A stretch of DNA of 64,000 nt from Pristiophorus japonicus (taxonomy: Eukaryota): contig NC_091994.1 in the NCBI RefSeq assembly GCF_044704955.1, positions 23,312,001 to 23,376,000 on the forward strand, read 5' to 3'. The notes beneath the pieces are model-generated. The model was not told the origin of the DNA. It did no database searches and saw only the letters and a program-made list of their open reading frames with translations. The translations under genes were made by a program, and so were the position numbers. Below are positions 22,826 to 25,922 of the stretch, one piece after another (positions within the stretch are counted from its first letter, which is position 1; the number at the start of each line of letters is the position of its first letter).

Positions 22826-22989
22826 CTCCAGTGAGGCAGAAGATGGAATCTTTAAACAGAACTCTGGTATTGCCTAATAGTCCAAGAAATCACAGCCTCA
22901 GTTTAAAACCTCAAACAACTGTTGGTATGGCATCAAAAACGGTATCGAGTACAACACAGAAGAGAATAGCTCATGCTCCCACTTTGAAG
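22826..22989 (+). CDS. REXO1: REXO1 exon 5 (...GMASKTVSSTTQKRIAHAPTLK)
   Basis: tttAG acceptor, AAG|GTAAAC donor; 164 nt, phase 1/0; GMASKT..KRIAH motif. Confidence 0.9.
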
Positions 22990-23886
22990 GTAAACTTTCA
23001 TATGCTGCCTCCATACATGCTACAAAATAGAAATCAGCCAGTTTAGAACAGTTGTGTAACAGTGTTTCTCTCACTGTAGTTCCTGACTCTGGTTCTCTTG
23101 CAGCAATTAGTTTGAAGATATTTTCCTCTGCGTCAAGCTATTGCCCTCTTTCAATTATTTTTTAACTATCTTTATTTTAAAGGGGATGCGTTGTGCTGTG
23201 GGATTTCGGTCCATTGTTGTCCGTAGTGCTTTGGTACTTACTGTCCTGCTTCCCCTGTGTGCTATGTAAACAACTCCATTCTCCACATACTACTTTGCTT
23301 TAAATTTTCATTCCTTGTAACACATGATTTTGCCCCTCATTATGGGCTACATGGCGGACATTTTGTCTGCCATCTAGTTTGAAATGTTCTGCCTTTGTGC
23401 AATATGGCACCATCAACAAATATGAAAACAGTAGTGTTACTATGTTACTGTCATGTGAAACTGGACAGATCTCATATCTGTCACAATCACATTGTTGAAA
23501 TGTTCAAAAAAGGACAAGTCTGATGCAGCTACTTTGGAAAACAAAATTCAAGGAAATGATCATCAGTCAACCGCCACTGAGAATTTGCATGCGTTGGGAA
23601 AATCAATTTTAAAAGAAAGTTGCAAAAGCAGATGTTGCCTGACCTGTGTGTTTCCAGCATGGTGGCGTGGTGGGTGGGGAAGAGCCTGCTGTCGGCATCG
23701 AAAAAAACGATACCGCATCTTCTGCACATGCGCAACAAAAAAAAATGACGGTTTTGACATTCTATCAATGGACACGCATGCGCAGTACAGCTCCAGGTTG
23801 GCAGTTGGCCAATTTTAAAGAGCCAGTTGTGTGAGAAGGAGTGCTGTGTGAGAGCATTGGAAAAATCGGATCTGCAGCAATACAAG

Positions 23887-24123
23887 ATGCAACGCAGTGC
23901 AAGGACCAAGAGTTTCTTACAGGATGAAGTGGAGGCACTAGTTACTGTGATTGAGACCAGATGGCAGGAGCTGGACACCGGCAGAGGTCACACAAAAGTT
24001 CAACCCAAAGAAATGAAGAAACGCTTGAACCAAATTGCAGAAGATTACTGTACAATGGTGACCACCATGGGATCTGGAGGCCAGTATAAAAAGAAGTGGC
24101 AGGACTTTGGTCAAATAGTTAGT
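23887..24123 (+). CDS. Harbinger Myb/SANT-like DNA-binding protein, exon 1
   Basis: MQRSARTKSFLQDEVEALVTVIETRW...KKRLNQIA...QYKKKWQDF (Myb_DNA-bind_5/MSANTD-like); donor GTAAGT at 24124, phase 0. Confidence 0.82.
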
Positions 24124-24241
24124 GTAAGTAATATTTTCATTTGTTCAATGCAATTGACATTTGTGAATGTGACCAGCTGTATATGTCCCACCCAACAGAA
24201 AGACACCCTCTCTTTAAAAAGTTGCATTTTCATCTTTGTAG

Positions 24242-24404
24242 AGGAAGGTGGCACATAATAAAAAGGAAAGAACTCAAACAGGAGGGGGCCTGGCAAATCT
24301 GCAGCATTTGACACCCTTGGAAGAGAGGGTCACTGCTTTGATGGGTCCTGCCTGGAGAAAAGCAACCACCATTGCACAAGCTGGGCCCACATTCGAGGGA
24401 GAGG
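24242..24404 (+). CDS. Harbinger Myb/SANT-like protein, exon 2
   Basis: ttttcatctttgtAG acceptor; RKVAHNKKERTQTGGG (the classic post-Myb TGGG motif), LTPLEERV; donor GTAAGT at 24405, phase 1. Confidence 0.82.
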
Positions 24405-24639
24405 GTAAGTCTTGCAAATTCCAGTCTAGCTTTGCTAAATGTTAAGTACTGTGCGGGCTAGCCATGCTTTGGTTCCTGGGGATGTCTCCGTCAGCTACGG
24501 TTCAGTTGATGCAATGTGCTATAATTCATTATGGTCCTTCAAAGCAGCCTGCTGCCTGCGCTGTGTGAGCTGACTCATGCCACCCACCCCGCCCCCTCCT
24601 CTGCTGCTAACCATTTGTCTGTTCTGTTATATTTTGCAG

Positions 24640-25649
24640 AACGTGAGGCCAACCCTGACTATGCAGAAGATTCAGACAAGGATGAGTCTAAAGAGAACAT
24701 CTTCCAATCCCACCCTTCAGACCAAGAGCATGGGGGTGAGGGGGAGGGGATGGAGATGGATGAAGCCCCCACTGTTTTACTGACTTTGGTGGAGGTGCAG
24801 GTGCCGCCCATTGAGGTGCCAGCCCATTCCGTGACGACTGGTTTGAGTGTTAGGAAACCATGGAATGTCCCAACGTCCGAGGCTGAGGATTCCAGTGGTG
24901 TGGTGCAGCGAGGCATGCCCAGGGCCCCACCTTCTGAGGCTGCTTGTTCCAGTGGTATGGTGCAGCGAGGCACACCCAGGGACTCTCCTTCCGAGGCTGA
25001 GAGTCCCAGTGATGGGGTGCGAGCCACACCCATGGGGAGGCGGGGAAGGAGAGCTCGACCGCGCTCTCCTGAGAGGCAGGATCTAACAGATGTGGTTCAG
25101 ATGATAGCAATGAGTGAGGAGAGCATTGATCTTACAAAATCACTCCTGGACACCATCAGTGGTGATGAGGTAGTGGGACTGTCGGGAGAAGTAACCGCAA
25201 TCTCACGAGAAATGGGAATGATGTCCAGGACCATGAGTGAGGGAATATCTGAGTCGGCTGAAACCACGTTAGTGACCATGAGGGAGGGAATGTCACAGGT
25301 AGCTGATGCACTGTCAGTGAACATCAGGGAGGGAATGTCCGAGATAGTGCAAACACTATCACTGAACATGAGGGAGGGAATGTCACAGGTAGTTGAGACA
25401 GTTTTGCTGAACATGCGGGAGGGAATGTTGCAGGTCGTTGAGACACTGTCGGGGCGCACGAGGGACGACATGTTGGAGTTAGCTGCTGCAATAAGGGAAC
25501 ACGCCCAGACCCCACGCCCATTGACAGAATCAACTGTCACTCCCACTCCACATTGCTGCCTGGGCCCTCCGCAATGCCACCTGCTGCCATCTCCTCCCCC
25601 CCCGTCTCCCTCATCAGTTGCGCACTACCTGAGATCTTGGAAAGAATAA
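24640..25649 (+). CDS. Harbinger Myb/SANT-like protein, exon 3 (acidic region, 19-aa and 15-aa repeats)
   Basis: attttgcAG acceptor in a phase compatible with exon 2; open to TAA at 25647-49; spliced total 1410 nt (469 aa). Confidence 0.72.
24876..25032 (+). repeat. 57-nt (19-aa) tandem repeat, ~2.7 copies, inside the Myb ORF
   Basis: Units start at 24876, 24933 and 24990 (SEAxxSSGxVQRGxPRxxP). Confidence 0.85.
25230..25499 (+). repeat. 45-nt (15-aa) tandem repeat, 6 copies, inside the Myb ORF
   Basis: Units start at 25230, 25275, 25320, 25365, 25410 and 25455; consensus NMREGMSQVVETLSL. Confidence 0.88.
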
Positions 25650-25874
25650 GCTTGGTACCAACCCCAGAAACACTGAGCAGGGGTGGTGGAGTCACCAAGA
25701 ACTAGTGTGGCGGGCGATCTTAGAATAAGGTGGAGGAGAGATGGGTGCAGCCTTTCTTTACTGCTGCTGTTAATATTGTTACTGTTGTAACTGCTCTCAT
25801 TAAAAGCTTTTTGTAAATTGAAAAGTTTGTAAGTGATCACACCTGAAAACTTTAAAGTTTAATACAAGAATAAT

Positions 25875-25922
25875 TTTATTAAAGTTAAGTACAAAGAACT
25901 GTTCGTTAAACTTTTGAATAAA
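25875..25922. terminator. Bidirectional poly(A) signals between the convergent Harbinger genes
   Basis: TTTATT (minus-strand AATAAA) at 25875-80 overlaps ATTAAA at 25878-83; AATAAA at 25917-22. Confidence 0.55.

What the first reader, a model, noticed from the sequence alone, without database searches (positions are those of the whole stretch)
22826..25922. Candidate REXO1-Harbinger Myb/SANT fusion through an in-frame exon trap in intron 5
Seen: REXO1 exon 5 ends in phase 0 (22989). About 0.9 kb downstream, on the same strand, is the Harbinger Myb/SANT gene. Three AG acceptors are in the Myb reading frame at phase 0. Two of them (ttttaaAG at 23820 and tctgcAG at 23877) would add the whole Myb domain with no intervening stop. 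The third is the strong native exon-2 acceptor at 24241. The element also supplies poly(A) signals (25878, 25917). Known: PGBD3 in intron 5 of ERCC6/CSB acts as an alternative terminal exon and yields the CSB-PGBD3 fusion. Inference: an isoform could join the REXO1 N-terminal region to a transposon DNA-binding protein while dropping the exonuclease domain. The two upstream acceptors have weak pyrimidine tracts, and no expression evidence is available here.
Basis: partly seen in the sequence, partly recalled or inferred. Interest (0 to 1): 0.75.

Follow-up and report, generated by a model that had tools for sequence, protein, structure and literature searches.

The report
Transposon tail exons trap shark genes
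A broken jumping gene inside a shark's REXO1 gene offers a splice site that a public gene model uses to swap REXO1's RNA-cutting end for the transposon protein's tail, without its DNA-binding part; models of seven other genes in this shark show the same swap, so it is likely a recurring, mostly neutral side effect rather than a new DNA-binding fusion.

Summary
The anatomy is as described, and the trap has outside support. The UniRef record 'REXO1 isoform X2' of Pristiophorus japonicus equals REXO1 exons up to 22989 joined to the Harbinger Myb exons 24242-24404 and 24640-25649. That is the third acceptor only. It skips Myb exon 1, which holds helices 1-2 and half of helix 3, so the product is not predicted to bind DNA. 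The two upstream AGs are no better than chance. The copy is decayed: no left TIR, broken transposase, 12 of 14 sampled Myb differences non-synonymous. Models of seven other host genes in this species join the same family's exon 2, and NDUFB8 takes the whole Myb gene. No other REXO1 protein carries these exons (0 of 27). Three RNA contig sets run past exon 5 without entering Myb, so the fusion is likely minor there; I saw no junction read. One contig shows this copy's exon 3 is transcribed. The scan had noted a similar Myb capture by PCDH9 in another genome (unchecked). Verdict: a probably real, lineage-specific, recurrent exon trap; function unproven.

The parts
21271..21475 (+). REXO1 coding exon 4
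   Evidence: spliced GT..AG to 22826 in RNA contigs of X5, X6, X7
22826..22989 (+). REXO1 coding exon 5, ends phase 0 at residue 838 (donor AAG|GTAAAC)
23046..23410 (.). unique intron-5 stretch covered by an isolated RNA contig (X5 depth 13.2; X6 23060-23229 depth 4.45); strand and origin unknown
   Evidence: table 8
23670..23886 (+). approximate truncated left part of the Harbinger copy: likely promoter and 5' UTR of the Myb gene (GCGCATGCGC-like motifs at 23724 and 23774; the NRF1 label is recalled); holds the two weak AGs 23820 and 23877; no left TIR
   Evidence: listed family differences begin at 23812
23887..24123 (+). Harbinger Myb/SANT gene exon 1 (helices 1-2 and first half of helix 3); skipped by the fusion; degenerate here (KKRW->KKRL, QC->QY)
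24242..24404 (+). Myb gene exon 2, the trapped exon (acceptor AG at 24240-24241, phase 0; donor GTAAGT); residues 839-892 of the fusion
24640..25649 (+). Myb gene exon 3 up to the stop: acidic and Pro/Gly-rich disordered stretch, basic patch, predicted 114-residue helix over 45-nt repeats; frameshifted against family members after about 25550
24849..24874 (.). in-frame micro-inversion that distinguishes this copy from five family proteins; lies inside an exact-match RNA contig (X5, 24796-24978, depth 48.2)
25878..25922 (+). poly(A) signals ATTAAA (25878) and AATAAA (25917); an AATAAA on the minus strand at 25875-25880
26090..27265 (-). Harbinger DDE transposase pseudogene (approximate ends), convergent with Myb; PF13359 split over two frames; longest stop-free stretch listed is 121 codons
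27966..29819 (.). nested non-autonomous TIR element with a 3-bp GTC duplication and a C-rich tandem repeat
   Evidence: (I23)
29925..29938 (-). right TIR-like end of the outer element, flanked by ATT; no partner found
36086..36220 (+). REXO1 coding exon 6 (canonical partner of exon 5; start of the EloA-BP1/KIX domain)

Best explanation
A decayed Harbinger transposon lies sense-wise in REXO1 intron 5, and a public gene model joins REXO1 exon 5 to the second exon of its Myb gene; this is likely a real but minor splice product that would give a REXO1 protein without its nuclease and without a DNA-binding domain, probably a tolerated by-product. Steps: (1) shown: exon 5 ends phase 0, and Myb exon 2 is a 163-nt internal exon with a phase-0 acceptor and a GTAAGT donor, 1.25 kb downstream, against 13.1 kb for host exon 6. 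(2) inferred: the spliceosome sometimes pairs the exon 5 donor with this near, exon-defined acceptor; Myb exon 1 is passed over because, as a first exon, it has no proper acceptor. (3) shown in the model: exon 2 splices on to exon 3 and the frame stays open to 25649. (4) inferred: the RNA ends at the element's AATAAA (25917) and, with the stop in the last exon, escapes nonsense-mediated decay. (5) shown for the model: the 1228-aa product keeps REXO1 residues 1-838, loses the EloA-BP1/KIX domain (843-1006) and everything after it, and gains the last 13 residues of Myb helix 3, a disordered acidic stretch, a basic patch and a predicted long helix. (6) inferred: because this acceptor is a property of an abundant family, sense copies behind phase-0 host exons do the same elsewhere, so the main effect is a partial drain on full-length host mRNA and a supply of raw fusion tails.
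For: P0001 (UniRef100_UPI00398F1206, 'isoform X2') equals the window's exons to 22989 plus 24242-24404 plus 24640-25649 letter for letter from residue 52; P0002 (X1) is the canonical form. A 2017 description of the NCBI pipeline says alternative variants had to be supported entirely by one long alignment or by RNA-seq of one sample, with rare introns filtered (PMC5737279, passage); that these records come from that pipeline is inferred from their naming. Recurrence: 6 of 18 hits of the exon-2 search have a host or host-like N-terminus followed by exon 2 without exon 1: REXO1, P0012, a kinesin, CARS2, ARL5-like and TRMT10-like. One search adds MGAT5-like and Mx3-like. All records looked up are P. 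japonicus. Domain loss: PF13873 spans residues 7-84 of family protein P0041, whose exon 2 starts at 81, and its model puts H13-25, H41-58 and H65-80 in exon 1. Decay: left TIR not found; transposase broken; 12 of 14 sampled Myb-exon differences from family RNA are non-synonymous, 7 of 9 in exons 2-3. Minor status: RNA contigs of X5, X6 and X7 run 461, 1791 and 1742 nt beyond exon 5 with no listed piece on the Myb exons. Lineage limit: 0 of 27 other REXO1 proteins carry the exons.
Against: No junction read or contig 22989->24242 was seen: only 15 of 91 joints were displayed, and the stricter second laying could not be had. The read support of the model is not visible to me. An exact 183-nt contig of this copy's exon 3 has depth 48.2 in X5, against 59.9 for the REXO1 contig, which is high for a minor by-product. 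Myb exons 2-3 are free of frameshifts up to about 25550, while the transposase shows about 7 frame changes and 3 stops by eye (rough P 0.01-0.2 by how one counts); this hints at selection. In CARS2, ARL5 X1/X3 and Mx3 X1 a short extra peptide precedes exon 2, so the exact acceptor is not always the one used.
Confidence: 0.66

Rival explanations
1. The fusion is an abundant, selected isoform in some tissues: an incipient domestication in which the REXO1 N-terminal region gains a helical oligomerisation tail and acts as a nuclease-free partner or decoy in transcription elongation.
For: This copy's exon 3 is seen in RNA at depth 48.2 against 59.9 for REXO1 exons in X5, in a contig that spans the distinguishing micro-inversion. 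Frameshifts spare exons 2-3 up to about 25550 but riddle the transposase. The 45-nt repeat is expanded in frame to five units and folds as one confident helix.
Against: 7 of 9 sampled differences in exons 2-3 are non-synonymous; the native C-terminus is frameshifted. Myb-retaining, transposase-less Harbinger lineages are published (PMC13668399, passages). Exon-3 RNA can come from the element's own promoter, unspliced intron (island depth 13.2) or the opposite strand. Contigs through exon 5 do not enter Myb in 3 of 3 runs that cover exon 5.
Confidence: 0.16
2. Isoform X2 and the similar models are annotation artefacts: reads from thousands of expressed family copies are mis-placed on intronic copies and chained to host exons.
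For: Family RNA depth over the element is in the thousands, from other copies. No junction was seen in the contigs. Two of the recurrent models (P0021, P0052) carry no isoform label and could be ab initio joins.
Against: A junction read has to anchor in unique REXO1 exon 5 and end exactly at a native AG. The pipeline is described as requiring full support for alternative variants (PMC5737279). This copy differs from the family at 219 listed places, so its reads are mappable. Contigs drop rare variants, so their silence is not absence.
Confidence: 0.13
3. One reading: exon 5 also splices to 23821 or 23878 (or 23887), giving REXO1 fused to a whole, working Myb DNA-binding domain, as in CSB-PGBD3 or tSNARE1.
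For: The AGs are in frame and stop-free. A related subfamily copy gives NDUFB8 isoform X1 the whole Myb domain (P0050), and Mx3 X1 uses sequence upstream of the Myb start, so such entry can happen in this genome.
Against: Pyrimidine counts are at chance level and 9 of 14 local AGs are equally in frame. Neither of the two P. japonicus REXO1 records found uses them. This copy's exon 1 has lost the Trp and Cys kept by the family (W in 6 of 6 informative rows' family members versus L here is read) and scores 16.1 bits alone, under Pfam's 21.7 cut-off.
Confidence: 0.05

Closest known systems
CSB-PGBD3 (piggyBac in ERCC6/CSB intron 5; PMC2268245, abstract and section 10 read)
   Same: A DNA transposon in a host intron is used as an alternative 3' end, in frame, with its own poly(A) signal, and the host catalytic domain is dropped.
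   Different: PGBD3 has a conserved acceptor directly upstream of a whole single-exon transposase, has been conserved for 43 Myr and is as abundant as CSB. Here an internal acceptor of a three-exon accessory gene is used, the DNA-binding part is skipped, the copy is decayed, and neither conservation nor abundance is shown.
TSNARE1 (Harbinger Myb domain fused to a SNARE domain; bioRxiv 10.1101/2021.02.09.430442, passages)
   Same: A vertebrate host gene fused to exons of a Harbinger Myb/SANT gene.
   Different: TSNARE1 keeps the tri-helix domain and is described as dating from early vertebrates. This fusion takes only the part behind the domain, at the C-terminus, and was found in one species.
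NAIF1 and MSANTD1-4 (domesticated Harbinger Myb genes; PMC9392472, passages)
   Same: Derived from the Myb-like gene of Harbinger elements.
   Different: Those (MSANTD1-4) are single-copy genes at conserved positions that keep the Myb domain. This is one of very many copies, still beside its broken transposase, with a degenerate domain.
MADF/Myb-retaining non-autonomous Harbingers of Caenorhabditis inopinata (PMC13668399, passages)
   Same: Accessory gene open, transposase lost or broken.
   Different: Those keep TIRs and still move. This copy lacks its left TIR, and the passages seen describe no host fusion.

Membership tests
PIF/Harbinger element | DDE transposase of the Harbinger type | tested here: met
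   PF13359 DDE_Tnp_4 at E 1.8e-14 and 1.9e-06 in two frames, as a pseudogene
PIF/Harbinger element | second gene with a Myb/SANT tri-helix domain | tested here: met
   exon 1 alone hits PF13873 weakly (16.1 bits, under cut-off); family member P0041, 67% identical in exon 1, passes (32.8 bits)
PIF/Harbinger element | paired TIRs and a 3-bp target duplication | tested here: not met
   right end 29925-29938 only; best left match in 22990-23900 has 4 mismatches. It is a truncated remnant, not a mobile member.
Transposon exon trap (CSB-PGBD3 type) | in-frame acceptor and poly(A) signal inside a host intron, sense strand | tested here: met
Transposon exon trap (CSB-PGBD3 type) | fusion transcript is made | tested here: inconclusive
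   gene model P0001 has the junction; no junction among 15 of 91 joints displayed in contigs
Transposon exon trap (CSB-PGBD3 type) | acceptor upstream of the whole transposon ORF, so the DNA-binding function is captured | tested here: not met
   the used acceptor is internal; upstream AGs are at chance level
Domesticated host-transposon fusion gene | orthologous insertion and fusion conserved across species | tested here: inconclusive
   0 of 27 other REXO1 proteins carry the exons, but no close sawshark relative was among them and no shark genome could be searched
Domesticated host-transposon fusion gene | purifying selection on the captured exons | tested here: inconclusive
   7 of 9 sampled differences non-synonymous against a possible shortage of frameshifts
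Domesticated host-transposon fusion gene | fusion protein detected | not testable with these tools
   needs western blot or proteomics

The most novel reading that the evidence does not exclude
In the sawshark lineage one Harbinger family works as a portable C-terminal cassette. Its Myb exons 2-3 cap many host genes (REXO1, Mx3, MGAT5, CARS2, ARL5, a kinesin and others) with the same helical tail. At REXO1 the capped, nuclease-free form is a major isoform kept open by selection. This would be a live view of host-transposon fusion genes forming through a protein-interaction module rather than a DNA-binding domain, possibly tying unrelated host proteins to each other or to the element's own proteins.
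Probability: 0.14. Interest if true: 0.78.

Novelty: new variant of a known kind. Interest (0 to 1): 0.47.

Why it matters
Host-transposon fusion genes are usually found long after the fact, and the cases read here keep a transposase or DNA-binding domain. Here one abundant, still-transcribed family offers the same internal acceptor at eight or more host genes of one genome. That makes it testable how often trapping happens, how much host mRNA it diverts, and which traps selection keeps. For REXO1 itself the likely outcome is modest: a minor nuclease-free isoform. It also warns that several 'isoform X1/X2' protein records of this species end in transposon sequence.

Tried and rejected
No whole genome is held, so copy number, uniqueness of the micro-inversion and the DNA of the other traps were not tested. 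The run search listed no holder on record as RNA; X5-X7 proved to be spliced only when laid. X8 (organism B) holds the transposon family but does not cover the REXO1 exons; that says nothing about the insertion. A stricter laying over exon 5 and the Myb exons was not obtained, so low-depth joints stay unseen, and the 22989->36086 join was not seen directly because exon 6 lay outside the stretch laid. The ESM Atlas gave no usable hit for the host part of P0012; its likeness to CCDC148 is recalled only. A search for REXO1 with a TFIIS-N-terminal-domain interaction motif found 0 papers, so that recalled motif in the retained region is not used as evidence. Literature searches listed no paper on a REXO1-Harbinger fusion or on Harbinger Myb exon trapping in sharks; the library lacks most subscription journals and no supplements were read. 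Rejected: the upstream AGs as acceptors (chance level); an intact mobile element (left TIR missing); read-through from exon 5 into the Myb frame (stop after 18 codons). Rows left out: P0054 (repeat match) from the classification; four 55-56 aa fragments (P0030, P0032-P0034) from the REXO1 screen.

Full report
Observation. The coordinates hold. A REXO1 exon at 22826-22989 ends in phase 0, and the canonical next exon starts at 36086. A three-exon Myb/SANT-like gene lies on the same strand at 23887-24123, 24242-24404 and 24640-25649, open for 469 codons. It is followed by ATTAAA 25878 and AATAAA 25917, and faces a Harbinger-type DDE transposase pseudogene on the minus strand (PF13359 split over two frames). 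The two upstream AGs are not beyond chance: 9 of 14 AGs in 23758-23886 are in the Myb frame, and their pyrimidine counts (11 and 8 of 20) are matched or beaten by 34% and 77% of the 783 AGs in the intron. The native acceptors 24241 and 24639 (13 and 14) fall in the range of the nine true REXO1 acceptors, 10-16.

The fusion exists as a gene model. A search with exon 4 among longer proteins gave 11 hits among 21 candidates, and one lacked PF15870. That protein, P0001 (UniRef100_UPI00398F1206, 'RNA exonuclease 1 homolog isoform X2', Pristiophorus japonicus, 1228 aa), is REXO1 residues 1-838 followed by Myb exons 2 and 3, with the junction APTLK|RKVAHNKK. The window's exons reproduce it letter for letter from residue 52. 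P0002 (X1, 1267 aa) is canonical. A passage on the NCBI pipeline states that alternative variants had to be supported entirely by one long alignment or by RNA-seq from one sample (PMC5737279). That these records come from that pipeline, and that the rule still held, is my inference; I could not see the reads.

What the product contains. It loses the EloA-BP1 domain (843-1006), which spans REXO1's KIX-like bundle, and the CHORD and C-terminal DEDDh domains described for REXO1 (PMC12129344, passages). It does not gain the DNA-binding domain. In family protein P0041, PF13873 covers residues 7-84 and exon 2 starts at 81. Its model (mean pLDDT 68, 9 sequences) has helices 13-25, 41-58 and 65-93, so only the last 13 residues of helix 3 are in exon 2. 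The tri-helix is what binds the TIRs (PMC9392472, passage). Exon 3 is predicted disordered for about 145 residues and then forms one long helix (176-289, block pLDDT mostly 82-97, single-sequence model) over five 45-nt repeats. P0001 has no Pfam hit.

The trap is recurrent. Of 18 hits to exon 2 in the 50% representative library, 6 have a host or host-like N-terminus followed by exon 2 without exon 1: REXO1, the unnamed host of P0012, a kinesin, CARS2, ARL5-like and TRMT10-like. One (NDUFB8 X1) takes the whole Myb gene, 5 are native Myb proteins, 1 has a foreign start plus the end of exon 1, 4 have short unassigned starts, and 1 was not examined. A search among proteins of 675-2149 aa added MGAT5-like X2 and Mx3-like (4 hits among 7989 scored). 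All records looked up are P. japonicus (P0044, P0048, P0051, P0054 and P0055 were not looked up). Six of the eight exon-2 hosts carry isoform labels; the kinesin and TRMT10-like models do not and may be ab initio joins. CARS2, two ARL5 isoforms and Mx3 X1 carry a short extra peptide before exon 2. I checked the DNA junction only for REXO1. None of 27 other REXO1 proteins (P0002 and 26 from other sharks, rays, a chimaera and a bony fish) matches the Myb exons, but no close sawshark relative was among them.

RNA. Four runs were laid on 20500-28000. X5, X6 and X7 are spliced (21475->22826, GT..AG). Their contigs through exon 5 continue for 461, 1791 and 1742 nt with no listed piece on the Myb exons. 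The canonical remainder is 1290 nt of coding sequence plus UTR, and the fusion remainder is 1441 nt to the AATAAA, so the canonical path is likely dominant there. This is inferred, since exon 6 lay outside the stretch. No 22989->Myb joint was among the 15 of 91 joints shown; contigs drop rare variants, so this is not absence. Against a merely minor role: an exact 183-nt contig at 24796-24978 has depth 48.2 in X5 (REXO1 contig 59.9) and spans a micro-inversion that marks this copy. Its strand and origin are unknown; unique intron sequence at 23046-23410 is also covered (13.2), and the element may keep its own promoter. Depth over the rest of the element is in the thousands and comes from other copies (219 differences found, 40 shown).

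Decay and selection. The left TIR was not found, and a second element is nested near the right end. The transposase has about 7 frame changes and 3 stops, judged by eye against recalled motifs; one is confirmed by Pfam. Of the 40 displayed differences, 14 fall in Myb exons and 12 are non-synonymous (7 of 9 in exons 2-3), as expected of neutral drift. Exon 1 has lost family Trp and Cys residues. The Myb frame agrees with family members to about 25550 and is then frameshifted. The shortage of frameshifts against the transposase gives P of about 0.01-0.2 depending on the count, before allowing for the fact that open copies are the ones noticed. Myb-retaining Harbinger derivatives are published (PMC13668399, passages).

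Mechanism and verdict. Most likely the exon 5 donor is sometimes captured by the near, exon-defined Myb exon-2 acceptor (1.25 kb, against 13.1 kb). Exon 1 is skipped because a first exon has no acceptor, the RNA ends at the element's poly(A) site, and with its stop in the last exon it would escape decay. The result is a minor, nuclease-free, non-DNA-binding REXO1 with a transposon tail (0.66). Rivals: selected major isoform (0.16), annotation artefact (0.13), full-Myb fusion (0.05). It works like CSB-PGBD3 (PMC2268245, abstract and section 10) in layout, but fails the feature of capturing the whole transposon ORF, and conservation is unshown. TSNARE1 (bioRxiv 10.1101/2021.02.09.430442, passages) is the closest Harbinger-Myb fusion and keeps the domain. 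Searches listed no paper on this fusion or on shark Harbinger exon trapping; most subscription journals and all supplements were unseen. Earlier scan notes on PCDH9 and on chained Myb genes are unchecked leads; two of them supplied paper ids. New variant of a known kind; interest 0.47.

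Noticed in passing
P0050 (UniRef100_UPI00398F4FBB): NDUFB8 isoform X1 model of P. japonicus joins the mitochondrial NDUFB8 N-terminus to a whole Harbinger Myb domain (PF05821 27-74, PF13873 83-161): a better candidate than REXO1 for a DNA-binding fusion.
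   Followed up: partly
P0020, P0023, P0022 (Mx3-like X2, X1, X3): Two of three Mx3-like isoform models keep the complete GTPase and GED and add the Harbinger tail with many tandem repeats; an antiviral protein with a transposon-derived extension.
   Followed up: partly
P0049, P0056, P0057 (ARL5-like X1-X3): All three listed isoforms end in the Harbinger tail and truncate the Arf domain; two enter 11 codons upstream of the native acceptor.
   Followed up: partly
window 23046-23410: Isolated exact-match RNA contig in unique intron sequence upstream of the Myb start (depth 13.2 in X5, 4.45 in X6), while intron 4 has almost none; possibly nascent RNA or a transcript from the element's promoter.
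   Followed up: no
window 24849-24874: In-frame micro-inversion of about 26 bp in Myb exon 3; reversing it raises the summed match to five family proteins from 211 to 393.
   Followed up: yes
window 27966-29819: Nested non-autonomous TIR element with a GTC target duplication and about 700 bp of C-rich 26-nt tandem repeat.
   Followed up: partly
window 13130-13875: Another small element with Harbinger-like ends and ATT on both sides (read by eye), with internal hairpins at 13327-13391 and 13759-13817.
   Followed up: no
window 25860-25935: Poly(A) signals of the convergent Myb and transposase genes overlap on opposite strands (ATTAAA + at 25878, AATAAA - at 25875-25880).
   Followed up: no
window 11000-12700, 32050-32970: Decayed LINE-type reverse transcriptase fragments in REXO1 introns (CR1-like by recall).
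   Followed up: no
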